64,000 nucleotides of DNA, from positions 32,001 through 96,000 of IMG/VR virus record IMGVR_UViG_3300030333_002703. One strand, 5' to 3'. A program made the position numbers and the translations under genes. The notes beneath the pieces are model-generated. The model was not told the DNA's origin. It ran no database searches and saw only the letters and a program-made list of their open reading frames with translations. Below are positions 41,590 through 61,765 of this stretch, in pieces (position 1 is the stretch's first letter; each line of letters opens with the position of its first letter). The stretch is from a virus.

Positions 41590-41620
41590 CATAAATTGTG
41601 AATTGTAAGGAGGATATAAA
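41590..41620 (-). promoter_or_regulatory. Conserved 31-bp viral promoter, copy A
   Basis: TTTATATCCTCCTTACAATTCACAATTTATG upstream of the MCM-like gene; matches copies B and C. Confidence 0.8.
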
Positions 41621-41659
41621 TGAATCAACCATACAATACAACAGGTGATACAACCAATA

Positions 41660-42364
41660 CTACACCCTCTTTGTGCGTTCAACACGCACTGGTTCTTCCG
41701 ATGTCAATACTTCTAACAAACGGTTACGCAGAACCTTACCCATACGCGGTACATTTTTCAATGCATCTGGGTGTAACATCTCTTCAATTGACCCGCATTC
41801 TTCTAGCAGGTTGTCTATCATTTCCGCACCGAATCCCGGTATCGCACGTAACATATCCATGCGTACATCATTGGTGGTCACACGGCGCACCGCGTGTGCG
41901 CTATGACGTGAAGCGGGTCGCACCAACTTGTCATGCAAACTGACAATGTAGGATGATGCTTCCAGCACATTGGTTGCTCGCACTACAGTGAACCCAAAGT
42001 CCGCTGTGATACGTGCGAGTGCGCTCATCACTTCACGAGAGATACGTGTGAATGTCATACGTGTGTTGGGGCTACGCCGCTTAAGTTTGCTGAAGTATGT
42101 GGCAACGTCACCCCATACGACAATAGCCGCACGTTCCACATTGGCATCCATGTTTTCCATCTGACGCCATAGATGACCAGACCTTGAACTTTCAATCAGG
42201 TCTGCAATGGTCTTGCATTCGACCACGCATCCACCTGCCAAGTAGTCACCCACGACAAGATGCTGTCGTTGAAATGACACAGGGGGTGAACGTGTTTCAC
42301 ATCTCTTTACGATGGCATCCACAAGAGGACCGCGCTCGTTACTATCAATCAATAAACTACTCAT
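41660..42364 (-). CDS. ERCC4/XPF structure-specific nuclease with HhH
   Basis: LIDSNE, VGDYL, ECKTIADL..S, GHLWRQM, IPGFG. Confidence 0.9.
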   Translation of the reverse strand: MSSLLIDSNERGPLVDAIVKRCETRSPPVSFQRQHLVVGDYLAGGCVVECKTIADLIESSRSGHLWRQMENMDANVERAAIVVWGDVATYFSKLKRRSPNTRMTFTRISREVMSALARITADFGFTVVRATNVLEASSYIVSLHDKLVRPASRHSAHAVRRVTTNDVRMDMLRAIPGFGAEMIDNLLEECGSIEEMLHPDALKNVPRMGKVLRNRLLEVLTSEEPVRVERTKRV

Positions 42365-42497
42365 ACCATAACCTCAATAAAAATACGATTGGGAATAGAA
42401 TGGCTAACACGCCTAACCAAAATACCAAACCAACACAGGTAACACCGAGTGTCACCCAGCCGGTCACAGTTCTTAGGTTGATTTTCTTCTCTCCCAT
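42357..42497 (-). CDS. 46-aa membrane microprotein (not in ORF track)
   Basis: MGEKKINLRTVTGWVTLGVTCVGLVFWLGVLAILFPIVFLLRLWYE fills the gap between MTase and ERCC4. Confidence 0.55.
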   Translation of the reverse strand: MGEKKINLRTVTGWVTLGVTCVGLVFWLGVLAILFPIVFLLRLWYE

Positions 42498-42509
42498 ACC
42501 CTGTCGGAA

Positions 42510-43946
42510 TCACCAATACTCCTTCAACTCTACTGCTGATTCACGGTACTTACTCACGGTCAGACCTGTGCGTTCTTGTTTCAAACGACGTTCCGATAGT
42601 TCAGCGTATTCAGGGTTGAGTTCTATGCCAATGTATGACCGCCCGTTCTCCAATGCCACAATCCCTGTCGTTCCAGACCCACTGAATGGGTCCACGATGA
42701 CCGATGGTTTGGTTGGGTGGTCGAGTAAGTCAAGGTCAGAAACATACACTTTGACAGTTTTGACCTTATCTTTGGTAAGGTTCTCGATGATGCGTTGTTT
42801 GACAGGGCCACCACCGTTTTCTTCTCGCCCGTCATACTTGGATTGTTGATTGACATACTCACCTTTCATGGTCGCTCCCCATTTTTGTTGGAGATGTTCA
42901 GCATTATCTTCAGATGTAGCGCGACCCGGTATGACAACCTCATGCTTCTCAATGGTCCCATGACATTCACAGTCTGGTGTGAATTGATTCTCCGGTTGGC
43001 GGCGAACCCAAGGCACACCACAGTCAGCACAACACGTGTGAGATGAACTCGCACGGATGATTGGTTCAATGAGATGCTTTGGATACACGGCGAAGTGTGC
43101 GCCGGGGAATGGTTGTGGATTGAAATGCCACACCGTTCTCATGTTGCGTAGTAAGCCACCTTCGGAATCATCATCTGCCATTGGCTCTGCATACGATTGG
43201 ATGTCATAGTAGTATCGTTTAGATTTACTGAAGTGGAAGAAGAACTCATGGCTACGTGTGCATCGGTCTTGCACAGGTTCAGGCATGGATACACCACCAC
43301 GATAATGTGGCCCACTGATTGACTTGGCCCATACAATATCGTTGCGAAGATACCAACCCGCTCTACGTGCCGCGAATGCAAACAACCAAGGCAATCCCAC
43401 CAAGTCCTTCTCCTTGTATCCATCGGGTAGAGATTTAGGTCTGAATTGACCGGCTTCATCACGATGCTTCTGCAATCCATATTGTTCTGGATTTGTCTTG
43501 GCGCTTCCTTTGCTCATGTATGAGTCACCAAGATTCACCCACAGTGTGCCAGATGGTTTGAGGATGCGTCGGCACTCCTCAAATATCTCCACCAGATGTT
43601 CAACGAAATGTTCGGGTGATTGTTCAAGACCTAGTTGCCCTTTCCATGCTCCACATTTGTTGCACGTTTCAAATGTGATGGGGTCGTCACGATTGTTAGC
43701 CCCTTGATTGCTGGCTTGTTTCTCGCTCTTACCATCGTCATTGCTACGACGTTGCCATGAGATGGGGTCATCCCAATCATGTTCGCATTCCTTATCTCCA
43801 CCGAATACTACAGGGTCAGTCTTGTAATCACGTAACCCCCAGTATGGTGGTGACGTTATCACTGTATCCACAGTTTCAGTTTCTATCTCACGCAACTTCT
43901 CAATCGCATGACCTATCTTAATTTCACAAGTTGTATCATCTCTCAT
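42510..43946 (-). CDS. Beta-class N4-cytosine/N6-adenine DNA methyltransferase
   Basis: TSPPYW before DPFSGSGTT; HFAVYP; GGAGGT RBS before ATG 43946. Confidence 0.93.
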   Translation of the reverse strand: MRDDTTCEIKIGHAIEKLREIETETVDTVITSPPYWGLRDYKTDPVVFGGDKECEHDWDDPISWQRRSNDDGKSEKQASNQGANNRDDPITFETCNKCGAWKGQLGLEQSPEHFVEHLVEIFEECRRILKPSGTLWVNLGDSYMSKGSAKTNPEQYGLQKHRDEAGQFRPKSLPDGYKEKDLVGLPWLFAFAARRAGWYLRNDIVWAKSISGPHYRGGVSMPEPVQDRCTRSHEFFFHFSKSKRYYYDIQSYAEPMADDDSEGGLLRNMRTVWHFNPQPFPGAHFAVYPKHLIEPIIRASSSHTCCADCGVPWVRRQPENQFTPDCECHGTIEKHEVVIPGRATSEDNAEHLQQKWGATMKGEYVNQQSKYDGREENGGGPVKQRIIENLTKDKVKTVKVYVSDLDLLDHPTKPSVIVDPFSGSGTTGIVALENGRSYIGIELNPEYAELSERRLKQERTGLTVSKYRESAVELKEYW

Positions 43947-46206: not shown

Positions 46207-46539
46207 TCATCCCTGTTGGAAGTATCCACTTACGTCTACTTTGTATGGCCCACTGTGTTGTTGCTCATCTCCACCATGTTTTGTCACTGTGTATTGGTTG
46301 GGGTCTGTTTGTGGTTGTTCTACCACTGGTGGGGCTTGAGGAGTATTTGAATCGCGGGTGTCCCATTCGGTTTGTTCCTTCCCAAGATTTGCAGGTGGAG
46401 TCAGACTAGCCGGGTTCAATAGACCGTCAACGATTTGCTTGACCTTTTCCAATGCTTCTGATGTAATGGATAACGCCTCGCGTAGCCGCTCGTTCTCATC
46501 CTTCAATGCTTGTGCTTGCGCTATGAAATCACTGCTCAT
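46207..46539 (-). CDS. Coiled-coil hypothetical protein
   Basis: AGGAGG RBS; LKDENERLREAL. Confidence 0.65.
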   Translation of the reverse strand: MSSDFIAQAQALKDENERLREALSITSEALEKVKQIVDGLLNPASLTPPANLGKEQTEWDTRDSNTPQAPPVVEQPQTDPNQYTVTKHGGDEQQHSGPYKVDVSGYFQQG

Positions 46540-47328: not shown

Positions 47329-49602
47329 TCACCATAATTTCTTTGGTCTGTGCTTATCCACCGCCATGCCGAGGTCCCAGTCAAGAACATCGAACACCAA
47401 TTTTAATTTCTTACGCACTAACTTGTCTATAATTCCTTCGGTATCGAATGTGAATCCATCTAATTCTGATATGGACCTGCACCCGACAACCTTTGTGGCT
47501 GGCATCCCATGTGGCACATCGCTAACGTAGCACCACAATACACTGTCACCCTCTATGAATGGTTCATCGGGTTCCATGTACCAGTTGTAGTATCGTGCAG
47601 CCCTCGCATACCCACCGGCAGTGGTTGGGTAGTGTCGCTTCGGGCTATGTGATGAGGTCTCGGTGGCCTCAATCTGTTTGGATAGTCGCGTACTGTATGA
47701 CAGTTCATCCAATGGAATCTCATTCTTGCGTATCTGATTCACCCATGAGCGCACAAACTGTGTGACATCTACTTCGGATGCACCATCGGCAACCAACATC
47801 AACACACCCTTCTGCAATTCACGAATGGCTTTGGGTGTGCTACTATGCTTCATCTCAAATCCTGATACCTTCAACTTACCCGCATCAGATTCAGGCCACT
47901 GTATGATTCCAGCGTATCTGTTCTTGACATCCCCACAGAACCAGTGTGGCATCCATGCTTCTGCTTCAGCAAACAGTTTGTAATTTCCAGTTTCGTGTTG
48001 GATAATGTCAGTCACAATCTGTGACACTTGTTCCATCTCATCCAATGGACATCGGATAAACACCGAGTCGGTGTGTCCGAATAGAACTTCATACCCCATC
48101 TCGTATGCGTGGTCACGTAGTGACCCAATAGCACGACGACCCTCGGATAAGATGGTGTCTGCAATGGCTAGGTCTGCCATGCCATGCCCCAATGATTCAG
48201 CGCACAGTCCATACAGCGAAGCCATCACACGCTTGACCGCCTTCTCCAGAATCCTGTCACCACTGTCTTTCAATTTCTGTCGTTCCTCAAACAGATACTC
48301 AATGACGGATGGGAGGATGCCTTGTTCTTCTTGTTCCCAATGTGTTCCATTCAACATGGTACGTGTAGTCTCACTGGGTTCATCCCTACGTGTAGTCCAA
48401 CACAGATTGTTGCCCAACATGATTGATGGGTACAACCCCTTGAAATCTAACACGGCTACACCATCATGCAAACCGGCTACCGGGTCCATGACATCAGCAC
48501 CTTGTAGTTGTCCTTTCTCACGGCGTCGTGACCTGTCACGTGTGGGGAACTTGAGGTCTGTTCGACGGCACACTAGACCACGTGCGAAGTTGCCCACTTC
48601 AAACGTGGAAGTCAATGACACACCACAGAACCGAACCATGTTGGTGAAGAACTCGGTACAATTGAGGAACATATCAATGTCATACATCAATCTAACGTCT
48701 TGCATACAGTAGTCAGTGAGCCGATAGAAATTATCATACCAATCATTCGACAAGTCCACATCATCTTTACCACCCAATTCTAGGTGCTTACCGATGGCAT
48801 CTAACTTGCGGGATGGGAACTGGCCGTTGCCACTATCCTTCCACACCCGTTCAAATCCTGAACCGTCACTGGCCTTACACGCTGTGTCGAATACCCACCG
48901 CCCCTTGATGGGTTGGTCGTTGTATCTGTATCCGTCGTGACCATCCTTGACCTTGCGAACCTGACCCAATGGTGACAGTCGCTTGTAGTTCTTGAATCGT
49001 CTAACCATGTGCGGTATGTCAGCCCACATTGCTGCGTGGGCTATGAGCATATCAAAATCCATATCCTCAATGTATTGGATGACGGCTTCATGCACCGCCT
49101 CCTCACTGGTATAGATGTGTAGTGTGTATCCATCACGTTGTTCAACTTCGTATTGGTTCTGACCTTCACGCCATGCGAAGCAGACCTGTTCTTGTGTGAA
49201 GTTATCAATCGCTGCCCAGCATTGTGTGAAGTCGTTGTTGTCATCAGGGTTCCACTCGATGTCAAAGTAACACTTACGTGGAGTCCACGCTGGCATGGTA
49301 GGGTGATTGTCAATCAACCATCGGTCTGTGAAAGGCACGTCAGCCTCCCACGTCTTTGGATACTTGGCTCGCTCATCATACAATTCGTTGGGTGTGGTAA
49401 GTTCATGCTTTGTTAATGGGAAACGGTCTACTGCATACGCATGAACATGAGGATGCTTAACATCACATTCGCTATAGAAATAATGCCTAAACGTATGGTC
49501 AGTACCTTCAATCAACTCCCCATTGGGGTTGCGGTATCGCCAATAGATGGCTTCGCCTCTCTCCCCTCGCGGGTAGTATGAATCAACAAGCATGAGTATC
49601 AC
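47329..49602 (-). CDS. polB: Family B DNA polymerase
   Basis: Exo FDIE, YCMQD; pol motifs LDFKGLYPS, KRVMASLYG, FGHTDS, KNRYAG. Confidence 0.95.
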   Translation of the reverse strand: MILMLVDSYYPRGERGEAIYWRYRNPNGELIEGTDHTFRHYFYSECDVKHPHVHAYAVDRFPLTKHELTTPNELYDERAKYPKTWEADVPFTDRWLIDNHPTMPAWTPRKCYFDIEWNPDDNNDFTQCWAAIDNFTQEQVCFAWREGQNQYEVEQRDGYTLHIYTSEEAVHEAVIQYIEDMDFDMLIAHAAMWADIPHMVRRFKNYKRLSPLGQVRKVKDGHDGYRYNDQPIKGRWVFDTACKASDGSGFERVWKDSGNGQFPSRKLDAIGKHLELGGKDDVDLSNDWYDNFYRLTDYCMQDVRLMYDIDMFLNCTEFFTNMVRFCGVSLTSTFEVGNFARGLVCRRTDLKFPTRDRSRRREKGQLQGADVMDPVAGLHDGVAVLDFKGLYPSIMLGNNLCWTTRRDEPSETTRTMLNGTHWEQEEQGILPSVIEYLFEERQKLKDSGDRILEKAVKRVMASLYGLCAESLGHGMADLAIADTILSEGRRAIGSLRDHAYEMGYEVLFGHTDSVFIRCPLDEMEQVSQIVTDIIQHETGNYKLFAEAEAWMPHWFCGDVKNRYAGIIQWPESDAGKLKVSGFEMKHSSTPKAIRELQKGVLMLVADGASEVDVTQFVRSWVNQIRKNEIPLDELSYSTRLSKQIEATETSSHSPKRHYPTTAGGYARAARYYNWYMEPDEPFIEGDSVLWCYVSDVPHGMPATKVVGCRSISELDGFTFDTEGIIDKLVRKKLKLVFDVLDWDLGMAVDKHRPKKLW

Positions 49603-50375: not shown

Positions 50376-50710
50376 GCTTTCAACTCCTTGTATGCTTCTC
50401 TCCATTTACGTTCATGCCGTCGCATCTGACTCAACTTGTAACGGTTAATTTCTGCTTGTCGTGAAGCCCAACCTTTGTCCCAATGTGGTCCTGCTCTTGG
50501 GGTATTGGGAATAAGTTCGGCAATCATCTGTTTGAGTTTGCCCATCGTTCCATATTTATTCAGCATTAGATTGTGCATGAACTGTGGGTATGGTGTACAC
50601 GTAATGCAATCCTTTGCACCACAGTTGTGTTCCAAATTAGCATCTAGTATGGATGCCCACTTACCTTCCTTCACACCGAGTTGTTTGATGTCTATACAAT
50701 CCAATGTCAT
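50372..50710 (-). CDS. Hypothetical protein
   Basis: ATGA overlaps; HNCGAKDCITC cluster. Confidence 0.6.
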   Translation of the reverse strand: MTLDCIDIKQLGVKEGKWASILDANLEHNCGAKDCITCTPYPQFMHNLMLNKYGTMGKLKQMIAELIPNTPRAGPHWDKGWASRQAEINRYKLSQMRRHERKWREAYKELKA

Positions 50711-51687: not shown

Positions 51688-51698
51688 TATTTTTCACC

Positions 51699-52988: not shown

Positions 52989-52990
52989 AT

Positions 52991-53944
52991 CTAGTTCACT
53001 CCTTTATTTTTTGTATCCTTTAGTTTCGCTACGAAGTAGTCGTAGTATGCATCATCCCCTGCGGGCCATGTATGCACACGTTCTACGAACTCCCCCCACG
53101 TTACCAAAAAGGAATAGTATTGGTCAGGCGTCAAGCCCAACGAATATACATTGTCTCTCAATTGCTTCATCACATACAATCTTGGGAGACCTTTGGCTGC
53201 GACCTTTCGCAACTCGGTAGATAGTGATTGCCATTCACCCGCCGCAATTGATAGTGCGGGGTCAGCAAAGTCAGCCTGTTCAATCAACAGACGTTCTTCC
53301 AATGCTTCATCATTTTGAGGCAACGATTGTAAGATGTCTATTGCACTACGCAAGTCACCATTACAGGTCTGATTTAGATGTTTGAAATGTTCATTCCAAG
53401 ATTGTGGTAATGATTCTTGGTCAGATATGTAACAGAATAATTCATCTGCTGCATCGTCAGTTGCACGACTAAATCTATATGTCATACAACGTGACTTGAG
53501 TGCATCGGTAATGGCTGACTCATCATTGGCTGTTAGAATGAACAGCGTTTGGTCAGTGCATTGCTCCATCGTATTTCTCATTGCTTCCTGCGCTTGCTTG
53601 GTCAGACCATCGGCCTCATCAAACAAGATTACTTTACGTGCTGTACCCATGCCGCCCTGTTGTGCAATCATCTTGACCTGATTCCTAACGAAATCTATTC
53701 CTCGGTCATCAGATGCATTGAATGTTACGTAATTGATGGGGTCGAACCATTCACCAAGCATATGTCGTGCCACTACACCGGCTGCTGTTGTCTTGCCAGT
53801 GCCGGGTGGCCCAACCAATAGTATGGCTGCTGGATATTCACCCCGTTCAATCCATTCCTCACAATCAGCACGAAAATCTGGGCAACCAACCATTTCATCA
53901 ATCGTGGTTGGCCGGTATCGTTCTCGCCATTGATTCGTCATCAT
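52991..53944 (-). CDS. rfcS: Replication factor C small subunit (clamp loader)
   Basis: WRERYRP, GPPGTGKT, NASDDRGID, DEADGLT..AQ, SRC, GDLR. Confidence 0.95.
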   Translation of the reverse strand: MMTNQWRERYRPTTIDEMVGCPDFRADCEEWIERGEYPAAILLVGPPGTGKTTAAGVVARHMLGEWFDPINYVTFNASDDRGIDFVRNQVKMIAQQGGMGTARKVILFDEADGLTKQAQEAMRNTMEQCTDQTLFILTANDESAITDALKSRCMTYRFSRATDDAADELFCYISDQESLPQSWNEHFKHLNQTCNGDLRSAIDILQSLPQNDEALEERLLIEQADFADPALSIAAGEWQSLSTELRKVAAKGLPRLYVMKQLRDNVYSLGLTPDQYYSFLVTWGEFVERVHTWPAGDDAYYDYFVAKLKDTKNKGVN

Positions 53945-54329
53945 CAATGGTGATTATTGAGGAGGATATAAACGACCCATCATCAATTGCGGTCACTAAA
54001 CGCAGCACGTCGTCGTGTTTCCACCGTCTGGGATACGATTTGAGGAGATGTTGCATTCGTTCCATTCCATCACGGTCATGTACCAATTCACGTATGGGCC
54101 ATAACAAGTCTATGATTTGTTGTATGCCATCGTTGTTCTGTATGCGCCGTGTGGATATACCATGCCGCGATTCCATCCATTGCATAAACAGTGGTTCGTT
54201 GCGCCGTGTGATAGTGACACCTCGGTTCACTTGGTATCCAATGGGTGTCTTTGGTGCGAAGTACACATAGATATGGAAACGTGCTTCGCGGGCTAACCAA
54301 CCCAACATGATTGAATCTACGTTGTACAA
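53898..54329 (-). CDS. Hypothetical protein, possibly degenerate LAGLIDADG fold
   Basis: MLGWLAREARFHI...IGYQV...VTIT resembles LAGLIDADG helix plus beta hairpin; GGTGA before TTG. Confidence 0.45.
   Translation of the reverse strand: MYNVDSIMLGWLAREARFHIYVYFAPKTPIGYQVNRGVTITRRNEPLFMQWMESRHGISTRRIQNNDGIQQIIDLLWPIRELVHDRDGMERMQHLLKSYPRRWKHDDVLRLVTAIDDGSFISSSIITIDDDESMARTIPANHD
53942..53972 (-). promoter_or_regulatory. Conserved 31-bp viral promoter, copy B
   Basis: TTTATATCCTCCTCAATAATCACCATTGATG; terminal ATG is an in-frame RFC start (leaderless geometry). Confidence 0.8.
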
Positions 54330-54399
54330 ATAATATCACCATTCATCCATACCATTACACATACTGTATTGCTTAATATGATACTCAATACTATTGATA

Positions 54400-55776
54400 C
54401 TACCCCATAATTGATAGCACTTCACTCAACTGTGCTGTGTCATTGAAACCTAGCCTACTATCCAACCCAATAATTGTAGGGCTATCCAAATGATAGTTGC
54501 CGTCATGTATCTTGACACCCACTGCAGTAACCCATACGATTGCCCCTACATCATCCACAGATACCCATCTACTATCTAGTCGTGGTGCTAGTCGTGGTGC
54601 ATTTCGTATGTTCAATGCCACATCATCGGGACACATCATCTCTGCAATGTAGGTGGTAGTATGTCCATCCAGTGCTGCTAATTTGATACGAATGTTACTA
54701 CCACTCAATTGTAGATGTGTGATGAGTAGTGGTAACTTCAATGCCTGTTGTTGTAAGATGTATCCCCCAATGAAATCATCATCATAGTATGGGGCATCGG
54801 CTAGCAGTCGCACGGTTTGGTCAGGTCTTACAGACCTAAGAACCTCTCGTAATTTCGCCATTGTGTCAATTTGCCGCGCGGGTGAGGCCTTCATTACCTT
54901 ATAATGCTCGGCCAAGTAAGATTGACGCGAAGTGTATGTTTCTTTCCACAATGCTTCGCTTCCATGTACTAGGACATCTGTGATTAGTACGGTTGCGGGG
55001 TCATAGTCATCAGAACACTCGATTTCAAAGATAGATGGAGTATGGTCACTTTCCCAAGATTGGACTAATTCACCAGACCTAGTAAATATGAGAGCATCAC
55101 TACCTGTGTAGTGAAGGAATAACCGAGAACTACCTACTAGGTCAATATAGGTAGTTTCGTAAGGTAGCGCTACCTTGTTCCATCGAAGATATTTGGGAAC
55201 AGGTACAATTGGCTCTCCGGGCCGCATTTCGCGTTTTACCGGCAAATCGCCTCTAACCGCTCTTTCGATAACTTCCAAAAATGGCAAATATGCGCTAGAT
55301 TGGCGTAAAGTAGCAGTATCGTAAATTGTGAACTGTGCCAATGCACGTAGCATATGGCGTTTGCTGATTGGGGGTGATTCACCCAATGCAACCTGCCAGA
55401 ACAGCGTGGCCTCGTCGTATGATAGAGAATCTACGATGTCGCCTAATTCGCGCTGGTACAGCGCGTCTAGATTGTGAAAAGCGTCATCAACCGACCAGTC
55501 ACTATCATCGTTATCAGATAGCGATGCAATCAGTGGAACGATGGGTTGCCCATCAACAAGGGCAATCCATTCCTCTGCGTGTACTCCTAGATATGATGGG
55601 ACACGAGATATGAACCAAGTGCCATTGATTCGTGGTTCATCATCGAACCACAACATGGCGGCTTCCATCCAGTCTTCATTTGACTGAATGAAGTCCTTGA
55701 TGACATCGTATTTGATGTGCCATCTCTCGTCACTCCGTAGGAGTGTCGCTATTGCTGACGCCTTCCATAGTCGCAT
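54400..55776 (-). CDS. ATP-dependent DNA ligase-like protein, catalytic motifs degenerate
   Basis: MRPGEPIVP, RLFLH...IFTRSG, ITDVLVHG..L....Y..R...L, OB-like end (RLGFNDTAQLSEV); KxDGxR absent. Confidence 0.65.
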   Translation of the reverse strand: MRLWKASAIATLLRSDERWHIKYDVIKDFIQSNEDWMEAAMLWFDDEPRINGTWFISRVPSYLGVHAEEWIALVDGQPIVPLIASLSDNDDSDWSVDDAFHNLDALYQRELGDIVDSLSYDEATLFWQVALGESPPISKRHMLRALAQFTIYDTATLRQSSAYLPFLEVIERAVRGDLPVKREMRPGEPIVPVPKYLRWNKVALPYETTYIDLVGSSRLFLHYTGSDALIFTRSGELVQSWESDHTPSIFEIECSDDYDPATVLITDVLVHGSEALWKETYTSRQSYLAEHYKVMKASPARQIDTMAKLREVLRSVRPDQTVRLLADAPYYDDDFIGGYILQQQALKLPLLITHLQLSGSNIRIKLAALDGHTTTYIAEMMCPDDVALNIRNAPRLAPRLDSRWVSVDDVGAIVWVTAVGVKIHDGNYHLDSPTIIGLDSRLGFNDTAQLSEVLSIMG

Positions 55777-56176
55777 CCTGCGGTCCTCTAAATGGGAGGT
55801 CTGCAGGGTCGCATATCAATACTTCGCATATCATCTTGGTATAGGGGTAACACCACTGGTGTGGTTCAGGTCTGGTTTTTTGACCAAACAGTTTGTCACT
55901 CAAATCTGATGTGGCGCGTCGTGAGATAGGTGCGCCTAGTGCATTGGCTGTAATGTAGAAACATTCCACAGCCAACTTGTGCGGTGCGCGGTGTGTAGGG
56001 TTGGGTGGTTTGGAAATCTCATGGTGTAGTTCCATAGCCTTCTTGGCTATGAAATCTGCTCGCCCTTCGTCATCTACCATGTGGTGAACCATGTATCCAA
56101 CTAGGTCATTGTAGGTATCAAATTTACCATACAGTTTGCGCCAATCGTAATCATCGTAGTGGTTGTAGTCACTCAT
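55730..56176 (-). CDS. Single cyclin-repeat TFB-like protein
   Basis: IAKKAMEL...RAPHKLAVECFYITANALGAPISRRATSD aligns by eye with TFB repeat 2. Confidence 0.55.
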   Translation of the reverse strand: MSDYNHYDDYDWRKLYGKFDTYNDLVGYMVHHMVDDEGRADFIAKKAMELHHEISKPPNPTHRAPHKLAVECFYITANALGAPISRRATSDLSDKLFGQKTRPEPHQWCYPYTKMICEVLICDPADLPFRGPQDATMEGVSNSDTPTE

Positions 56177-56639
56177 TGTAATACCCCACTGGTAGCACTG
56201 CACATTCAGGGCATGGTCCTGTATATTGTTCAACAAGAACTTCCCCATCATCATCTAACATGAACCCATCAGCAATCCATCCTATGTTGTCACATAGGTC
56301 ACAATCAACATCTTTTCGTTCAATACCCTTTGGTAATCGTTCACCTGTTCGGAAGTTGGGATTGCCTGATTCATCGGTAAGGTCTGGATACCTATTTGGA
56401 TGAAAGTCAATTGGGTTGTTTGGGTGGTTATGGTATCGCATCCTATCTCGGACTGAATCTTCCTTTGGGAGATTTGGATACGACTGGGCGTGAGGATTGG
56501 GTATGGGTAGCCTACACTCATCACACGCGACTGTTTCAGGTGGATTGGGTGGCCCCACACATGGCTCATCAGGATGGTATAGACCATCCCACCAGAAGTG
56601 GTTCTGTCTTGCCCCACAATGAGGACATTCAATTATCAT
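56169..56639 (-). CDS. Multi-CxxC Zn-binding protein
   Basis: CPHC, CDEC, CDLCDNIG, CPEC; track start 56714. Confidence 0.65.
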   Translation of the reverse strand: MIIECPHCGARQNHFWWDGLYHPDEPCVGPPNPPETVACDECRLPIPNPHAQSYPNLPKEDSVRDRMRYHNHPNNPIDFHPNRYPDLTDESGNPNFRTGERLPKGIERKDVDCDLCDNIGWIADGFMLDDDGEVLVEQYTGPCPECAVLPVGYYNE

Positions 56640-56740
56640 AGATACACCCACACAAGAAACGCACAAGTTAAGCCCATAAGTGCTCCTGTGATAACACCTT
56701 TCATGTATTCCCACTGAATCTCATCTTCATCATATGTCAC
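56636..56740 (-). CDS. 34-aa membrane microprotein (not in ORF track)
   Basis: MTYDEDEIQWEYMKGVITGALMGLTCAFLVWVYL; GTGA/ATGA overlaps at both ends. Confidence 0.6.
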   Translation of the reverse strand: MTYDEDEIQWEYMKGVITGALMGLTCAFLVWVYL

Positions 56741-56952
56741 TCGTTCCACTCCTCTTCAATCTCATCAATCCATTTGAGAATGTGGTCACAATCAATGGCA
56801 TATTTACGACTATACAACTCATAGTAGTCACGTGCGACCTCACAACTCGTATCTTCACACAACATTTCAATGTCGTCTCTCTTGAACTCATCCATACCAG
56901 ATTGTGAAACCCAACACGCTAGTCGTGTCATATCTCTATAGTGTGACATCAC
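56737..56952 (-). CDS. Hypothetical protein
   Basis: Overlapped operon gene. Confidence 0.6.
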   Translation of the reverse strand: MMSHYRDMTRLACWVSQSGMDEFKRDDIEMLCEDTSCEVARDYYELYSRKYAIDCDHILKWIDEIEEEWNE

Positions 56953-57215
56953 TCATCACCTACAAAGTCTGTTGTCTCGGTCAAGATGTCAAGTATTGCA
57001 TTCTTGACCTGCTCGGCTTGTTCTAGTGTCAATCGTACACCACGTTTAGATGGTCGCCCAGAGTTCGACCATACTCGGATGTCAATTTCGTTTTTGTTGC
57101 TATCGTCATGGAACTTGATACGGTCCACCCGTATGCTAAAGTTATCTGACCCTGACCCTTTCACCGGAATGGTGGCATGGGTGATATTTTCTTGCTCGCT
57201 ATAATCCTTACTCAT
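56949..57215 (-). CDS. PC4/p15-like ssDNA-binding transcriptional coactivator
   Basis: IDIRVW...PSKRGVRLTLEQ matches the PC4 signature. Confidence 0.85.
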   Translation of the reverse strand: MSKDYSEQENITHATIPVKGSGSDNFSIRVDRIKFHDDSNKNEIDIRVWSNSGRPSKRGVRLTLEQAEQVKNAILDILTETTDFVGDE

Positions 57216-57486
57216 TGTTTTTAGCCTCCTTTTCTTTGCGCTTCTTCAGCGTATTGGCGTTAGCGAAGCCGTCTCGACCTTGTGTATATCGGCTCATATC
57301 CGAGATACCGGGTGGTGCAGGTGGCTCCTCGACCTTCCCCCATTGTGGGCATACTTCTGCCCACTGTTGTCCTGCTTTGTATGATGTGTTGCCGACACGG
57401 TGACGGTTGCCTAGGTCTGCTGATTTCCAGACCCAACCGTACCCACCGGGGCATTGGTCACAACATAGTGTTTCTTTATTTTCCAT
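57208..57486 (-). CDS. Hypothetical Cys-containing protein
   Basis: CCDQCPGGYGW; GGAGG RBS. Confidence 0.6.
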   Translation of the reverse strand: MENKETLCCDQCPGGYGWVWKSADLGNRHRVGNTSYKAGQQWAEVCPQWGKVEEPPAPPGISDMSRYTQGRDGFANANTLKKRKEKEAKNNE

Positions 57487-57488
57487 AT

Positions 57489-57692
57489 TTATTCCTCCGC
57501 TTCTACTCTTTCTTTTGTACCTAGTTTGTACACATATGTTGGTCTATCTATGACCCGCATATAGCCACAATGGATTACCTGCCCATTGATGTAAATGTTG
57601 TGTGAATGAGAAGATGTTCTTTTCTTCATCCCACATCCAGAACATTGCCTAAGCGCCATCCGGTCTGCACTACGTGACATTACGAACCCCAC
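57489..57692 (-). CDS. Small Zn-binding protein
   Basis: CSGCG...HCGYMR. Confidence 0.55.
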   Translation of the reverse strand: MGFVMSRSADRMALRQCSGCGMKKRTSSHSHNIYINGQVIHCGYMRVIDRPTYVYKLGTKERVEAEE

Positions 57693-58075
57693 TCCTTGAG
57701 TGACCGCTGACGGTTCACATCATCGTAGATTTCGTCAATGATTGCTTGTGCTTCGGACTGGAACGCACCTCCTAGATTCATTATGCTTGATGTACTGATT
57801 GGCTTTGATTTAACCACATCATGTATCTCATCCTCCGTGATGAGTCCATCTTCAATGGCCTCGGCGGGTGTTCGGGTCACTGCCGCCGTGCTTTTTCTCA
57901 ACACTAGTGTGTCACCATCGAATGCGTCGATGCAATCCTGACAGATGGGTAACGACAATGCAAACTTGAAGTCTGGGTCTTTGGGCCAATTGGGGTCAGA
58001 TGGTGCGCCGCACCAATTCACTGATGCAGTGTGTGGCCCCTTGGTGATGTGTATGACCTTTGGTAAGTCCGACAC
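57680..58075 (-). CDS. Hypothetical protein (H/C..CxxC module, SIMNL motif)
   Basis: IH...WCG...ICQDC; SSIMNLGG. Confidence 0.6.
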   Translation of the reverse strand: MSDLPKVIHITKGPHTASVNWCGAPSDPNWPKDPDFKFALSLPICQDCIDAFDGDTLVLRKSTAAVTRTPAEAIEDGLITEDEIHDVVKSKPISTSSIMNLGGAFQSEAQAIIDEIYDDVNRQRSLKEWGS

Positions 58076-58300
58076 TCATTCACCCGGCCTGTGCTTCTCA
58101 CGCTTGCTTAGCATATTCTCCAACACCTTGAGTATGTTCGCACTCGCTGTCTTGAATCGCTTCTCGGCGTGTTCACAATCGAACACCCCCAAGTTACGTG
58201 CAAGGTCGTCTAGACCTTCAAACTTCATGTATCCATTCTCACCGTTGATGAGATAGTTTAGTATCTCCCACTCGGCGTGTCCTACTGATTTTGCTTTCAT
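58076..58300 (-). CDS. Hypothetical protein
   Basis: AGGAGG RBS. Confidence 0.65.
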   Translation of the reverse strand: MKAKSVGHAEWEILNYLINGENGYMKFEGLDDLARNLGVFDCEHAEKRFKTASANILKVLENMLSKREKHRPGE

Positions 58301-58302
58301 GT

Positions 58303-58392
58303 TTATGCCTCCTTATATTCCCAGAACTCCCAGATGGGTTCTCCGGTTTCCTCGTCAATGGGGCCGCGTAGATGGCTGAATAGTTTAGCCAT
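58303..58392 (-). CDS. 29-aa microprotein (not in ORF track)
   Basis: MAKLFSHLRGPIDEETGEPIWEFWEYKEA; GGGGTG RBS; fills the gap. Confidence 0.5.
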   Translation of the reverse strand: MAKLFSHLRGPIDEETGEPIWEFWEYKEA

Positions 58393-59452
58393 CTAGCAGC
58401 ACCCCACGTAATTGATTGAGTGTAGTTTCACCGTCACAGTATGCGACGATTGCTGCTTCAATTTCATTGAGTCGCGCCATCAAGTCATCACGGTCTTTTT
58501 CAGCCCGTTTAACTCGCTCGTGTGCTTCCTCTATACCACTTTCGCGGGCTGCGGGTATGTACTGGACTCCATCAATCCACACACCTTCAGTTTCAGGCCA
58601 CAACGTCTTGTATTCAGGTTCCGGTGTTGGTTCTTCCATCAATTCATCCACTGCTTCTACAATGTCTGGTTCATCAAGACCGACCACAACCTCATTTGTG
58701 AATGTTGGTGGTTCCTCCGATGTCAGAATGGTAAGTTCACCCTTGTGTTTGAGGTCTTGCAGACGCTTGATGAAATCACCTGATGTTTCATCATCCTCTC
58801 TCTCAATCCCCAACTCTTTGGCTGTCGCTCTAAGCGCTGTGCGCTCTTTATGTTGAGCGATTCTGGAACGTCGGAATTGCATTTGTGGTTGTGCCTGATT
58901 CCGTTCTTTACCTTTCTCTACCTCTTGTTCCCATTTGATGTCTGACTTCTCTACATGAACTGCATCATCCGGTGCATGATTCTTACAGTACCACTTACCA
59001 TCTTCAGTTCGATGTGAGATGTATAGAGTGGATGCGTCATTATGACCAACCTTACATCGCTCACCATTTTTTGTAGTACCATGACATTGACCACGGCTCT
59101 CAAGCCGTCGCATAGACACAAGTTGTGTTTGCCAGTATCCTGAATTGTTCACCAATGCAAAATTGGTTGGCTTACCAGTCGTCACCACTTGTAGTGCGCC
59201 GTGTCCAAGTAGAAGTTGAATGGCCTTGCGTACTTGGTCGTAACCAACATCAATGCCATCTGCCATCTGCTGTTGTGTAGCACAGTGGGCTTTGAAGCCC
59301 AGTTGTGGCACATGGACAAATGGTCGTTTGTCGAACATGAATCTGAAAATCTGTTCAGCGCGTCTATGTGTCATACCTTTACACTTATCCATTTCTTCTT
59401 CAGTGAGTGGTCGATAGATACTGTCTTTCCCATCCGTCGGACCCTTACTCAT
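58385..59452 (-). CDS. Winged-helix-like protein with C3H Zn knuckle and coiled coil
   Basis: TQQQMADGIDVGYDQVRKAIQLL..HGAL; CHGTTKNGERC...YCKNH. Confidence 0.6.
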   Translation of the reverse strand: MSKGPTDGKDSIYRPLTEEEMDKCKGMTHRRAEQIFRFMFDKRPFVHVPQLGFKAHCATQQQMADGIDVGYDQVRKAIQLLLGHGALQVVTTGKPTNFALVNNSGYWQTQLVSMRRLESRGQCHGTTKNGERCKVGHNDASTLYISHRTEDGKWYCKNHAPDDAVHVEKSDIKWEQEVEKGKERNQAQPQMQFRRSRIAQHKERTALRATAKELGIEREDDETSGDFIKRLQDLKHKGELTILTSEEPPTFTNEVVVGLDEPDIVEAVDELMEEPTPEPEYKTLWPETEGVWIDGVQYIPAARESGIEEAHERVKRAEKDRDDLMARLNEIEAAIVAYCDGETTLNQLRGVLLDG

Positions 59453-59456
59453 AGTA

Positions 59457-59960
59457 TCACACCCGTCGCTGTTCTAGTGCAACAATAGCGGCTCGCATTT
59501 GATTACCGCTAATTTCACCATCCATGTATGACTCAATGGCTGATACAAGATAGAAGATTTCTTCTTCCAGCATCATAACGCGCTCTGCCAACTTCGCTGG
59601 GAACCCCGCGAACATCGTTGTTGATGTCGCCTTGCTGAAGTCACTGTTGGGGAATACCTGTGTGGTTAATTCACCAATAGATTGTTCTTCATGGGGTTCC
59701 ACTGGTTCATCCGTTGGGAATGGGAAAACAGGGAACAGACGTGCGCCACGTCTATTGCCAGCCTTCTCTACCAGTCCGTCTTCGATGAGACATCTCTCGG
59801 CAGTTTCACGGTATCCGTTTGGAACACCGAGGGCTTCGTTGTAAAAGCCCAATCGCTCACCGGGTGTCTCTCTAACGATGTTTAGAAGTTTCATAGCGCG
59901 CTGTCGCACTGCCTTCCGTCGTCGTCGTCCATTTGCATTTTTAGTTCTTACTTCGTGCAT
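59457..59960 (-). CDS. Winged-helix-like protein with coiled-coil end
   Basis: LLNIVRETPG...LIEDGLVEKAGNRRGARLF; AAGGAG before ATG 59960 (track start 60059). Confidence 0.6.
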   Translation of the reverse strand: MHEVRTKNANGRRRRKAVRQRAMKLLNIVRETPGERLGFYNEALGVPNGYRETAERCLIEDGLVEKAGNRRGARLFPVFPFPTDEPVEPHEEQSIGELTTQVFPNSDFSKATSTTMFAGFPAKLAERVMMLEEEIFYLVSAIESYMDGEISGNQMRAAIVALEQRRV

Positions 59961-60002
59961 TTTTATCTCTCCTTTATTTTGTTTGTATCCGTTAGGAATT
60001 GG

Positions 60003-60058
60003 TGGGGGGTAGGGTGCGTTGCTTGGGATGCATGACGGTAGTAAATCCCTACCCCCCA
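60003..60058. other. Intergenic GC-rich stem-loop
   Basis: tggggggtaggg (60003-60014) and ccctacccccca (60047-60058), a perfect 12-bp inverted repeat. Confidence 0.85.
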
Positions 60059-60066
60059 TGAATTGC

Positions 60067-61722
60067 TCATATATTCAAGACCTCACTGGCCTTTGGAATG
60101 CTGTTGAGCGCAGACATCCCTTCTTCGTTCACGAATGCCTTCAGGTCATTCAAGTCTGTGGTTCCAATCTTATCCACACCAGATGATTCTTTGTAATCTC
60201 CCACGGTCTGGTATAGTACACCAGTCATGACATTGTGGACTGTGGATAGACGACGGTTGAGTGTTTCCAACCCAATCGTGCGACCCTTCAAGACAGTCTT
60301 GCCATCAGACCATTCTGGCTTGTGTGTGATTGCACCGTTCAATACATTGTAAGCATGGAACAGTGTGTTACTCTGGTCACGGTTCACTGCAACCCAATCA
60401 TTGCTGGGCTTTGTCCAACCATCAAGAGCAAGTCGCCACATATACCCACCAGTCAATTTTTCACTAACAACCTTGTCATTCTTGATGACCGGCTTCTTGT
60501 TGGGCCATCCAATGAGGCCACGTGTCTCACACAGTGTGAGTAGTCGTTCAAACAATTGAACATCCACTGGAAGGTGTTGCATGAACTCCATCTCGACAAG
60601 TGAACGCTGTGCATCTACAATCACTGAATTGATGTCACTAGCAAATGCATCCCAATCACGGTCTTTCATAGCACCCTGCTTGTGTCGAATAGATGCAATG
60701 GTTCTGACACCACCCATCACTGCCAAGTTTTGACAGTACACACGTTCTGCTACGGCTTGGACAGACAGTGCTTTTGTGCCATCCAGTGAGTTGTTGATGC
60801 TGAATCCATATCGGTATAGACCGTCAAGTGATTTGGCGGTATCATTCATCAGATTAAGACTGATAAATCCGTGACCATTTTCACTCAATCGTTGTCGTGC
60901 TTTTTCCCGAGTCTGGGCTGCTTGTGATACATCACAGTCAAGACGCATCTTTGCACCTTCGTTGTGTGCATAGACACGTGCCTTCCAATCATTCTTAGAT
61001 GCCATATCCAAGATGGGGTCACACACTGTGGGATATGATAGGGGGAAGTAATCCTTACCGACCACACCAAGACACGCACCTTCAGGTCTATCTGATGATG
61101 CATATGATGGGTTGAAGATTGCGAAGTGCTTTGCGTTGCCTTTAGCATCAGTCACTGGTGAGAACGTAGGAGCCATCTCCTCCGATTCTTGATGTGCTGT
61201 GAACACCGGCTTCATCACTGGGGTGAATCGCCAATCGTGAGCAATCAAACCTTCACGACCACCGGCTAGGATACTGCCATCCCATACCTCATCACTAACT
61301 TCCACTGCACCAGCAGTAGTAGGGACTTCATCATCCCAATCTTCATCTCCACCATCATTGTTCGGTGAGCCACCTAAATCCATGATGCTTGCTTTCTTTG
61401 CTTTCTGCATTGCTTTGATGTTGGCTGATGCCACACCCTGTTCTAATGCATCTACCAATTCGATGTGTTCCGGCTCTACTACGAGCGGTGCTTTGTTGCC
61501 ACCGAAATGGGCTGATGGGTGATAATCTCCATGCTTCAGGGATGCACTCTCAACAAGGAATGCAGATTGCCCATCACTTGTTTTGTGCTGTTGGGCAATT
61601 GCTCCTTTTGGAATCCATACTGACCGAGGACCACTGACCGCTTCATAACGAACTTTCGTTTGTTTGTCGTTGGTTTCCTCAACATGACCGATAACCACAA
61701 TTTTGGTATTTTCATTTGTCAT
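60067..61722 (-). CDS. DUF932-family protein with N-terminal extension
   Basis: LGVVGKDY, INNSLDGTKAL...RVYCQN...IRH, TLFHAYNVL; alternative GTG start 61737. Confidence 0.75.
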   Translation of the reverse strand: MTNENTKIVVIGHVEETNDKQTKVRYEAVSGPRSVWIPKGAIAQQHKTSDGQSAFLVESASLKHGDYHPSAHFGGNKAPLVVEPEHIELVDALEQGVASANIKAMQKAKKASIMDLGGSPNNDGGDEDWDDEVPTTAGAVEVSDEVWDGSILAGGREGLIAHDWRFTPVMKPVFTAHQESEEMAPTFSPVTDAKGNAKHFAIFNPSYASSDRPEGACLGVVGKDYFPLSYPTVCDPILDMASKNDWKARVYAHNEGAKMRLDCDVSQAAQTREKARQRLSENGHGFISLNLMNDTAKSLDGLYRYGFSINNSLDGTKALSVQAVAERVYCQNLAVMGGVRTIASIRHKQGAMKDRDWDAFASDINSVIVDAQRSLVEMEFMQHLPVDVQLFERLLTLCETRGLIGWPNKKPVIKNDKVVSEKLTGGYMWRLALDGWTKPSNDWVAVNRDQSNTLFHAYNVLNGAITHKPEWSDGKTVLKGRTIGLETLNRRLSTVHNVMTGVLYQTVGDYKESSGVDKIGTTDLNDLKAFVNEEGMSALNSIPKASEVLNI

Positions 61723-61734
61723 AATGCCATACTC

Positions 61735-61765
61735 CACCAATGGTGGAATGGGAGGAGGATATAAA
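61735..61765 (-). promoter_or_regulatory. Conserved 31-bp viral promoter, copy C
   Basis: TTTATATCCTCCTCCCATTCCACCATTGGTG, intergenic upstream of the DUF932 gene. Confidence 0.8.

What the first reader, a model, noticed from the sequence alone, without database searches (positions are those of the whole stretch)
41590..61765. 31-bp fixed-spacing promoter repeated three times, with conserved elements downstream of TATA and no canonical BRE
Seen on the - strand: A 41620-41590 TTTATATCCTCCT-TACAATT-CACAATTTATG; B 53972-53942 TTTATATCCTCCT-CAATAAT-CACCATTGATG; C 61765-61735 TTTATATCCTCCT-CCCATTC-CACCATTGGTG. Consensus is TTTATATCCTCCT-N7-CACMATTKRTG, with the first 13 bases identical. The final RTG lies 28 nt from the first T, which is archaeal TATA-to-TSS geometry; in B it is an in-frame RFC start. 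The upstream flanks (GATTCA, GGGTCG, CCGCCC) lack a purine-rich BRE. The copies head the three - strand blocks: DUF932/regulators, RFC-SSB-PolB and MCM-thermosome-TFB. Inference: a virus-specific promoter class selected through TCCTCCT and the CAC-ATT element, possibly by the viral TFB or mini-TFB.
Basis: partly seen in the sequence, partly recalled or inferred. Interest (0 to 1): 0.75.

Follow-up and report, generated by a model that had tools for sequence, protein, structure and literature searches.

The report
Virus-specific archaeal promoter without upstream BRE
Three (probably four) near-identical copies of one strong archaeal promoter head the replication operons of a marine Poseidoniales virus, and each related virus carries its own version of the sequence just after the TATA box, which suggests, but does not show, that a fast-evolving viral factor reads it.

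Summary
TTTATATCCTCCT occurs exactly three times, all on the - strand (41620, 53972, 61765), and these are the only TTTAWAW heptamers in the 64 kb. A weaker fourth copy lies at 46351.

They are promoters. Each sits just upstream of a - strand gene block. The RFC gene behind copy B is leaderless, with its ATG at position 32 from the first T. A metatranscriptome contig stops at 61735, position 31 of copy C.

Six related viral contigs carry 3 to 12 copies each, on one strand, at the same gene positions. Within a genome the 13 to 14 bases from the TATA box onward are identical. Between genomes the six bases after TATA differ (CCTCCT, GCATCT, ACCCCT, ACCTTT, TCCTCA, ACCATC). Nothing upstream of TATA is conserved, whereas host TFB-gene promoters show a purine-rich BRE. 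The composite motif is absent from five Poseidoniales genomes.

Every virus whose syntenic region is covered encodes a TFB that evolves far faster than the nearly invariant host TFB. That this TFB reads the motif remains inference: its known DNA-contact residues are unchanged, and its gene lies inside an operon driven by copy A.

This is a new variant of a known kind. The closest precedent is the GTC element downstream of TATA in rudivirus promoters.

The parts
61735..61765 (-). Promoter copy C. TATA box 61765-61759, hexamer CCTCCT 61758-61753, CCACC 61746-61742, inverted repeat CCACCA/TGGTGG 61746-61734, inferred start 61735. It heads the DUF932 gene (ATG 61722).
   Evidence: RNA contigs of X12 and X20 (one sample) cover 60914-61735 and stop there, while DNA contigs run on. 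Orthologous copies lie upstream of DUF932 in G001, G002, G003, G004, G005 and G011.
53941..53972 (-). Promoter copy B. TATA 53972-53966, hexamer 53965-53960, TCACC 53953-53949. The RFC start codons ATG 53944 and ATG 53941 fall at positions 29 and 32, so the mRNA is leaderless.
   Evidence: The RFC ATG lies at position 32-33 also in G003 and G004. The copy lies inside the 3' end of the upstream ORF 53898-54329.
41590..41620 (-). Promoter copy A. TATA 41620-41614, hexamer 41613-41608, TCACA 41601-41597, inferred start about 41590. A leader of about 17 nt with GGAG follows, then ATG 41573 of the 474-aa protein.
   Evidence: Orthologous copies lie upstream of the same gene in G001, G002, G003, G004 and G011. 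There is no inverted repeat here in any genome.
46321..46351 (-). Probable fourth, weaker copy D: TTCAAAT ACTCCT caagcc CCACC, upstream of the Cas4-like nuclease gene.
   Evidence: G001, G002 and G003 have the same weaker TTAAAT-type class of copy. An RNA contig at 45946-46113 lies downstream. The DNA contig of X4 diverges at 46352.
36843..41573 (-). Operon behind copy A: 474-aa unknown protein, DnaQ-like exonuclease (39454-40164), thermosome (37934-39505), Zn-ribbon ORF (37765 to about 37975), TFB (36843-37781).
   Evidence: The genes abut or overlap, and no TATA-like site lies between them.
36843..37781 (-). Virus-encoded TFB, with a Zn ribbon and two cyclin repeats. It is the lead candidate for the factor that reads the downstream promoter block.
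   Evidence: Pfam TFIIB 4e-43 and Zn ribbon 5e-17. It is 70-71% identical to Poseidoniales TFB. Viral branches are long and host branches near zero.
47329..53941 (-). Operon behind copy B: RFC small-subunit homologue, four unknown proteins, family B DNA polymerase.
   Evidence: RNA contigs lie at 50790-50996, 51657-51837, 52063-52275, 52576-52860 and 53578-53860.
54400..61722 (-). Gene block behind copy C: DUF932 protein, then many small proteins including a PC4-like one (56949-57215).
   Evidence: No further TATA-like site lies in the block.

Best explanation
The three sites, and a weaker fourth, are copies of the virus's own promoter for its replication (early or middle) operons.

Shown or directly read from the sequence:
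- A consensus TATA box occupies positions 1-7.
- Transcription starts about position 31, which places the TATA box at -30 to -24.
- All conserved information lies downstream of TATA: a hexamer at -23 to -18, a C-rich spacer, and CCACC at -11 to -7. In most copies CCACC is the left arm of an inverted repeat that spans the start site.
- There is no upstream BRE.
- Each related virus keeps the block from TATA to about -17 identical in all its copies, and the block differs between viruses.

Inferred: TBP binds the TATA box. The direction and strength of the promoter come from the downstream block. That block is read by a lineage-specific trans-acting factor that co-evolves with it. The lead candidate is the virus-encoded TFB, whose first cyclin repeat would lie on the DNA just downstream of TATA (the position of eukaryotic BREd). 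Host TFB would give the first, basal round of transcription, and the viral TFB would then take over.
For: Exact repeats on the coding strand, directly upstream of gene blocks.

Start site: RFC is leaderless, with its ATG at position 32-33 in the window, G003 and G004. An RNA contig edge lies at 61735, position 31 of copy C, in both runs of one sample, while DNA contigs run across it.

Relatives: 50 copies in 7 genomes, always on one strand. The positions upstream of the RFC, DUF932 and 474-aa protein genes are conserved even in G011, whose proteins are only 35-50% identical. In the complete genomes G001 and G011 all copies lie in the replication module and none in the structural module.

Conservation: within-genome information is about 2 bits at positions 2-14, 0.9-1.8 bits at positions 15-24, and 0.2-0.9 bits upstream. 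Mean 31-mer identity is 0.75 within genomes and 0.47 between them.

Host: the composite motif has 0 matches in 5 Poseidoniales genomes, 8.6 Mb in all. Host TFB-gene promoters have a purine-rich BRE before TTAAATA.

TFB: all six viral genomes whose syntenic region is covered encode a TFB. Viral TFB branches are 0.2-1.3 changes per site against 0-0.07 for 25 host TFBs (quick tree). About 100 host-invariant positions are changed in the viral TFBs, including positions 156, 158, 165 and 167 around the RGR loop.
Against: The TFB HTH recognition helix (286-298) and the RGR loop (159-161) are invariant between virus and host. RGR is the counterpart of the human TFIIB BREd contacts G153/R154; that equivalence is from my own knowledge.

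The TFB gene is the last gene of the operon behind copy A, and no promoter of its own is visible. Copy A must therefore work with host TFB at least at first.

The RNA evidence is one contig edge from one sample, and contigs cannot prove a 5' end.

Genome-specific regulatory sequences around early promoters are also known in Sulfolobales viruses, where other regulators are proposed to read them (PMC11065993).

Any covariation between promoter type and TFB clade is confounded by shared ancestry and rests on only 6-7 genomes.
Confidence: 0.5

Rival explanations
1. The sites are the same promoters, but the conserved block downstream of TATA, with its inverted repeat over the start site, is an operator for a separate virus-encoded regulator rather than for TFB. 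That regulator would be a repressor or activator that times the replication operons. Candidates are the small Zn-ribbon protein, the PC4-like protein or one of the unknown small proteins.
For: The conserved block overlaps the start site, where archaeal repressors usually act (review PMC5569661). Most copies carry an inverted repeat. The A-type copies lack it in every genome, as would be expected if only some operons are regulated. Virus-specific regulatory sequences around early promoters are proposed to be read by virus-specific regulators in Sulfolobales viruses (PMC11065993). The known DNA-contact residues of the viral TFB are unchanged.
Against: The arms of the inverted repeat are spaced by 3 or 6 nt, which does not suit one dimeric protein. 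The strictly invariant part is the hexamer that abuts TATA, not the repeat. No candidate DNA-binding regulator was identified by family searches.
Confidence: 0.25
2. The sites are ordinary strong promoters read by host TBP, TFB and RNAP alone. The identity within a genome would come from spread of one promoter copy, or from gene conversion between copies, so the hexamer would not be read specifically.
For: Copy A must fire with host factors, because TFB lies in its operon. Some host TFB-gene promoters also have a C-rich run after TTAAATA. Contigs of other strains break or diverge right at the copies (X4 at 46352, X2 at 53981), so the copies may be recombination junctions.
Against: The conserved tract has a sharp upstream edge at the first T and is only 13-24 bp long, which is short for homologous conversion, and no pair of copies shares a longer tract. 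Orthologous copies changed together in each of 7 genomes. The composite motif is absent from 8.6 Mb of host DNA.
Confidence: 0.2
3. The motif is to be read on the + strand. AGGAGG would be a ribosome-binding site before an ATG, or a purine-rich BRE before an inverted TATA (ATATAAA) that drives + strand transcripts.
For: The complement of copy A reads AGGAGGATATAAATG, and a 107-aa + strand ORF starts there. Host BREs end in AGG or GGG directly before TATA.
Against: Only copy A has the ATG; B and C have ACG and AGG there. The + strand there is antisense to conserved - strand genes. In relatives the complement of the hexamer is not AGGAGG (AGATGC, AGGGGT, AAAGGT). All 50 copies lie 31-70 nt upstream of a start codon on the motif's own strand.
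Confidence: 0.02
4. The sites are not promoters at all, but repeats with another role (packaging, replication or recombination sites) or a chance repeat.
For: Contigs of other strains break near copies B and D.
Against: The statistics. The canonical TATA box and its spacing to start codons. The conserved orthologous positions across 7 genomes. The iteron-like repeats of relatives lie elsewhere, in the divergent region. No Rfam family matches.
Confidence: 0.03

Closest known systems
GTC element downstream of the TATA box in promoters of the rudiviruses SIRV1 and SIRV2 (Kessler et al. 2004, as described in PMC5569661 and PMC1635249)
   Same: It is a virus-specific cis element directly downstream of TATA, present in most promoters of the virus, and proposed to be read by a virus-specific factor.
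   Different: SIRV promoters keep a normal BRE, the element is 3 nt long, and the hosts are Sulfolobales. Here there is no BRE, the block is 6 nt plus a -10 element, and each viral lineage has its own version.
Genome-specific consensus regulatory sequences around the strong early promoters of anti-defence genes in Sulfolobales viruses (PMC11065993)
   Same: There are many copies per genome, with a nearly identical core. The copies are more alike within a genome than between viruses, which is taken to imply virus-specific regulators.
   Different: There the core is BRE plus TATA, identical to strong host promoters, and it precedes single small early genes. Here BRE is missing, host genomes lack the motif, and the copies head replication operons.
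Canonical archaeal core promoter (BRE, TATA, initiator, proximal promoter element)
   Same: A TATA box at about -30 to -24, a start at a purine after a pyrimidine, and leaderless or short-leader mRNAs.
   Different: There is no conserved purine-rich BRE. The proximal element is GC-rich (CCACC), not AT-rich.
Downstream TFIIB recognition element (BREd) of eukaryotic RNA polymerase II promoters
   Same: The position is the same, immediately downstream of TATA (about -23 to -17), where the first cyclin repeat of TFIIB or TFB lies. The RGR loop is conserved in the viral TFB.
   Different: The BREd consensus (RTDKKKK, from my own knowledge) does not resemble the pyrimidine-rich hexamers here. No archaeal BREd has been described as far as I know. 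Binding was not tested.
Phage-encoded specificity factors with matching promoters (T7-type RNAP and promoter pairs, phage sigma factors) and the hairpin promoters of phage N4
   Same: The logic is the same: a fast-evolving viral initiation factor with lineage-specific promoters. The resemblance to N4 is an inverted repeat at the start site.
   Different: The machinery is different. This is an analogy only, and no membership is claimed.

Membership tests
Archaeal TBP/TFB-dependent core promoter | TATA box (TTTAWATA-like) centred about 26-27 nt upstream of the start | tested here: met
   TTTATAT occupies positions 1-7 and the start is inferred at position 31.
Archaeal TBP/TFB-dependent core promoter | Purine-rich BRE immediately upstream of TATA | tested here: not met
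   The upstream 6 nt have a purine fraction of 0.24-0.50, and within-genome information is only 0.2-0.9 bits. Host TFB-gene promoters do show it.
Archaeal TBP/TFB-dependent core promoter | Transcription start at the expected distance | tested here: inconclusive
   An RNA contig edge lies at 61735 in one sample. The leaderless RFC ATG lies at position 32-33 in three genomes. No raw 5' ends were available.
Archaeal TBP/TFB-dependent core promoter | Lies upstream of genes on the coding strand | tested here: met
   All 50 copies in 7 genomes do so.
Archaeal TBP/TFB-dependent core promoter | Dependence on TBP, TFB and RNAP in vitro | not testable with these tools
   This needs biochemistry.
Virus-specific element downstream of TATA (SIRV GTC type) | Conserved element directly after the TATA box in most promoters of the virus | tested here: met
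   The hexamer is identical in all strong copies of each genome.
Virus-specific element downstream of TATA (SIRV GTC type) | The sequence GTC | tested here: not met
   The hexamers are CCTCCT, GCATCT, ACCCCT and others. Only one G005 copy reads GTCTCT.
Genome-specific early regulatory motif of Sulfolobales viruses | Several copies per genome, more alike within than between genomes | tested here: met
   31-mer identity is 0.75 within genomes and 0.47 between them.
Genome-specific early regulatory motif of Sulfolobales viruses | Core identical to strong host promoters (BRE plus TATA), preceding single small early genes | tested here: not met
   There is no BRE, the motif is absent from 5 host genomes, and the copies head multi-gene replication operons.
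BREd-like TFB contact site | Position immediately downstream of TATA | tested here: met
   Positions 8-13, which are -23 to -18.
BREd-like TFB contact site | Sequence-specific binding by TFB or TFIIB | not testable with these tools
   Only the conservation of the RGR loop and the variation around it could be read.

The most novel reading that the evidence does not exclude
These would be a class of archaeal promoters that needs no upstream BRE. Direction and specificity would be set by a lineage-specific hexamer just downstream of TATA, plus a -10 element, and both would be read by a rapidly co-evolving virus-encoded TFB. That would be an archaeal counterpart of phage sigma factors or of T7-type polymerase and promoter pairs, used to pull the host RNA polymerase onto viral genes. 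In addition, the inverted repeat across the melted region (-11 to about +5) would act as a DNA hairpin that helps or gates promoter opening.
Probability: 0.25. Interest if true: 0.85.

Novelty: new variant of a known kind. Interest (0 to 1): 0.62.

Why it matters
[quoted passage not shown] The three papers on their viruses that I checked do not mention a promoter, a TATA box or a TFB.

This finding gives a precise, testable promoter model for these viruses. It marks the replication-module operons and predicts their start sites. It also offers a natural experiment: seven lineage-specific versions of one promoter, each next to its own fast-evolving TFB. That bears on how promoter direction and TFB specificity are set in archaea when there is no BRE.

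If the viral TFB reads the downstream block, it would be the first case known to me of a virus redirecting archaeal transcription with its own general initiation factor and matching promoters. If it does not, this remains a well-documented but ordinary set of repeated viral promoters.

Tried and rejected
- The window's whole genome is not held, so copies outside the window could not be counted.
- An IMG/VR scan with the 16-base pattern gave 58 single, unrelated hits, which is about what chance would give by my rough estimate, and did not return the window's own contig.
- A single-protein scan with the TFB found only an unrelated AT-rich contig, L083.
- Naive k-mer enrichment upstream of host ORFs gave no clear host consensus. 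Upstream regions of host tRNA genes were few and heterogeneous. The statement about the host therefore rests on the TFB-gene promoters of about 30 species and on the pattern scan.
- RNA runs: stretches without RNA contigs (53888-57871, 61856-62500) are not evidence of silence, and depth cannot rank genes.
- The rarity of TTTAWAW as a sign of selection against stray TATA boxes is confounded by palindrome avoidance. It holds in the low-GC host G009 but not in the high-GC host G006.
- The + strand readings (SD plus ATG, or inverted BRE plus TATA) were rejected; see the rival explanations.
- The right arm GGTGG is not merely the ribosome-binding site: in three G001 copies the real SD lies further downstream.
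- The CCACC/GGTGG pair cannot be an RNA hairpin in the promoter's own transcript, because the left arm lies upstream of the inferred start.
- Bacterial sigma-70 promoters and intrinsic terminators are at chance level. No Rfam family matches.
- No close named virus is in the phage collection: the best PolB identity is about 22%.
- Pfam, PHROGs and PDB gave nothing for the 474-aa, 429-aa and 326-aa proteins, so 'MCM' and 'SSB' stay unconfirmed.
- The careful ML tree did not finish, so the quick tree is what I cite.

Full report
WHAT IS THERE

On the - strand the 13-mer TTTATATCCTCCT occurs exactly three times, starting at 41620, 53972 and 61765. With up to two mismatches the window has 5 matches against 0.97 expected, and no shuffle reached 5. 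The three sites are the only TTTAWAW heptamers on either strand of the 64 kb. Dinucleotide shuffles expect 29. A third-order model expects only about 5, because this genome avoids palindromes such as TTTAAA and TATATA. The rarity by itself is therefore weak evidence. The exact repeat is the strong part of the observation. A weaker fourth copy, TTCAAAT ACTCCT N6 CCACC, starts at 46351 on the - strand.

CONTEXT

The window holds a + strand structural module (1-36846, with a 6024-aa ORF) that converges on a - strand replication module (36843-64000). The - strand encodes TFB, a thermosome, an ERCC4 nuclease, a DNA methylase, a primase-like protein, a Cas4-like nuclease, PolB, an RFC small-subunit homologue, a PC4-like protein and a DUF932 protein.

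The TFB is 70-71% identical to TFBs of Poseidoniales (Marine Group II) and about 60% identical to those of other Thermoplasmata. The DNA is found in marine metagenomes. This is therefore a virus of Poseidoniales of the magrovirus kind. The exact TFB sequence has been seen on contigs of up to 111,582 bases.

Copy C heads the DUF932 block. Copy B heads RFC to PolB. Copy A heads a 474-aa unknown protein, an exonuclease-like protein, the thermosome, a small Zn-ribbon ORF and TFB.

WHY THESE ARE PROMOTERS, AND WHERE THEY START

I number positions from the first T of the TATA box.

- In B the RFC reading frame runs TTG ATG ATG ACG. The two ATGs lie at positions 29 and 32, and the protein begins MMTNQWRERY. 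In G003 and G004 the RFC ATG lies at position 32-33. The RFC mRNA is therefore leaderless and must begin at about position 30-32.
- In C, metatranscriptome contigs of 823-824 nt cover 60914-61735 and stop at 61735, which is position 31. This holds in both runs of one sample, while DNA contigs of two other samples run across the place.
- In A a start at about 41590 would give a leader of about 17 nt with GGAG before ATG 41573.

The TATA box thus spans -30 to -24, the hexamer -23 to -18, and CCACC -11 to -7.

RELATIVES

Searches with the RFC, DUF932 and 474-aa proteins, and with a TFB alignment, found related viral contigs. I read six of them over their whole length, or for G005 over nearly all of it.

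Each has its own multi-copy, strand-specific version of the promoter:

- G001 (110 kb, complete): 8 copies of TTTATAT GCATCT and 3 of NTTAAAT ACATCT.
- G005: TTTATAT ACCTCT twice and TTTATAT GTCTCT once.
- G002: 9 copies of NTTAAAT ACCCCT.
- G003: 5 copies of NTTAAAT ACCTTT (one of them with TTCAAAT).
- G004: 6 copies of TTTATAA TCCTCA (one of them with TTAATAA).
- G011 (109 kb, complete): 12 copies of TTTAAGA ACCATC.

The element at positions 20-24 also goes by genome: CCACC in the window, G001, G002 and G005, CCATA or CCATC in G003, CCAGA in G004, and A-rich in G011.

Copies lie upstream of the same genes (RFC, DUF932, the 474-aa protein) in all of these genomes that cover them. That includes G011, whose proteins are only 35-50% identical to the window's. 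In the two complete genomes all copies lie in the replication module, and none in the structural module.

Over 50 copies, within-genome information is about 2 bits at positions 2-14, 0.9-1.8 bits at positions 15-24, and only 0.2-0.9 bits upstream of TATA. Mean 31-mer identity is 0.75 within genomes and 0.47 between them. The orthologous promoters have therefore changed together within each genome. The conserved tract has a sharp edge at the first T.

HOST COMPARISON

A pattern of TATA, YT at positions 12-13 and YCACC at positions 20-24 has no match in five Poseidoniales genomes, 8.6 Mb in all. It matches copies B and C in this window.

The promoters of the host TFB gene in about 30 Poseidoniales species show TTAAATA or TTTAAATA. 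In most of them a purine-rich run (AAAAGG, GGAGGG, ATAAGG) comes directly before it, which is a normal BRE. The viral copies have nothing of the kind: the purine fraction of the 6 upstream bases is 0.24-0.50. So the motif is not the ordinary host consensus, and the lack of a BRE is real.

My picture of host promoters is otherwise poor. Simple enrichment analyses gave little.

THE INVERTED REPEAT

It is perfect in C, imperfect in B and absent in A.

Folding of positions 17-45 gives mean z-scores of about -2.4, -2.2 and -1.9 in the window, G001 and G002. The z-scores are weaker in G005 (-1.6), G003 and G011, and there is no signal in G004. The copies upstream of the 474-aa protein gene lack the repeat in the window, G001, G002 and G003, the genomes whose copies I listed one by one.

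The arms are spaced by 3 or 6 nt, which does not suit a single dimeric protein site. In three G001 copies the real ribosome-binding site lies further downstream, so the right arm is not just the SD. With the start at position 31 the left arm is not transcribed. The repeat therefore spans roughly the region that melts on initiation. A hairpin in melted DNA, or in read-through RNA from the upstream operon, remains possible. I could not decide between them.

WHO READS THE DOWNSTREAM BLOCK

Identity within a genome, together with rapid turnover between genomes and a sharp upstream edge, points to a trans-acting reader that co-evolves with the block. That fits better than a general requirement for promoter strength.

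For the viral TFB:

- All six viral genomes whose syntenic region is covered encode a TFB.
- In a quick ML tree, 15 magrovirus TFBs group beside the Poseidoniales TFBs. Viral branches are 0.2-1.3 changes per site, against 0-0.07 for 25 host sequences.
- About 100 positions that are invariant in 28 host TFBs are changed in the viral ones. These include 156, 158, 165 and 167 around the RGR loop, and 282 and 284 before the recognition helix.
- By homology with TFIIB, the first cyclin repeat lies on the DNA just downstream of TATA (my own knowledge).

Against the viral TFB:

- The recognition helix (286-298) and the RGR loop itself are unchanged.
- The TFB gene is the last gene of the operon behind copy A. 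A conserved Zn-ribbon ORF fills the gap before it, and no TATA-like site is visible nearby. Copy A must therefore fire at least once with host TFB, unless TFB is carried in the virion.
- The published parallel in Sulfolobales viruses invokes other regulators.

COMPARISON WITH WHAT IS KNOWN

Three papers on magroviruses and other Poseidoniales viruses do not mention a promoter, a TATA box or a TFB. No paper in the library holds both 'magrovir' and 'TFIIB'.

The closest precedents are two. One is the GTC element downstream of TATA in SIRV1 and SIRV2 promoters, proposed as a virus-specific cis element (PMC5569661; PMC1635249). The other is the set of genome-specific regulatory sequences around strong BRE/TATA cores of early anti-defence genes in Sulfolobales viruses (PMC11065993). 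TFB genes are known in some rudiviruses and in viruses of Asgard archaea (PMC13700489).

What differs here is fourfold. There is no BRE. The block downstream of TATA is longer and specific to each lineage. An inverted repeat spans the start site. The copies head replication operons. I therefore file it as a new variant of a known kind.

I could not check the count beyond this window.

VERDICT

The 'virus-specific, BRE-less' description is supported and extended to seven genomes. Selection by the viral TFB is plausible but not shown.

Noticed in passing
whole window; G001 (L076-L081); G011 (L245-L250): The viruses avoid palindromes to an extreme degree, and the hosts do not. The window has 0 GATC (581 expected), 0 AGCT (267 expected), and 36 of the 64 six-base palindromes are absent. 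G001 lacks ACGT, AGCT, CCGG, GATC and TCGA. G011 lacks ACGT, AGCT, GATC and TCGA. Host contigs lack 0 or 1 six-base palindrome. An N6/N4 DNA methylase gene lies at 42510-44000.
   Followed up: partly
window 36843-37781 (-) and relatives: The viral TFBs evolve far faster than the nearly invariant Poseidoniales TFBs (quick tree). In G003 the TFB gene sits next to the PC4-like gene instead of after the thermosome.
   Followed up: partly
window 37765 to about 37975 (-): A small ORF with two CPxC pairs (a zinc ribbon) lies between the thermosome and TFB, overlaps both, and is conserved in G001.
   Followed up: no
G001 99649-100143 (L080/L081); G002 30368-30775 (L252): Clusters of 9-12 direct repeats G[GT]TTTAC[CT] lie in the divergent region between the replication and structural modules. 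They are candidate origin iterons or control sites for the late operon. The window has no such cluster.
   Followed up: partly
window 61806 (-); G001 and G002, many places: The 12-mer GAAGAAGAATGA recurs 8 times in G001 and 10 times in G002 on the coding strand, and once in the window. It encodes a C-terminal EEE followed by a stop, and it contains an ATGA that could be a start/stop overlap with a next gene. It could be a translational coupling junction or a shared acidic tail.
   Followed up: partly
window 46352, 53981 and 50370-50704: In DNA contigs of other marine samples, X4 diverges from the window at 46352, 1 nt upstream of copy D. An X2 contig ends at 53981, 9 nt upstream of copy B. Both X2 and X4 lack 335 bp (50370-50704), which removes most of the 124-aa ORF. 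The promoter copies may be boundaries of mosaic modules.
   Followed up: no
host contigs G009 (L184-L202) and G006 (L164-L183): TTTAWAW is strongly depleted in the low-GC Poseidoniales genome G009: 12 observed, 281 expected at order 1 and 60 at order 3. It is not depleted in the high-GC genome G006 (97 observed, 29-51 expected).
   Followed up: partly
G003 (L255-L257): The 10-mer TGGCTCGCTC and close variants recur about 10-17 times on one strand. The nature of this repeat is unknown.
   Followed up: no
L211 and L213 (other TFB-encoding viral contigs): More distant TFB-encoding marine viral contigs also show many TATA boxes followed by a shared hexamer, TTTAWAT RGGTGR in L211 and NTTAAAT AGGTGA in L213. 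Here the upstream flank is partly purine-rich.
   Followed up: no
window 15186-33260 (+): A single ORF of 6024 aa lies in the structural module. A large jelly-roll protein has been reported in Poseidoniales viruses (PMC11706807).
   Followed up: no
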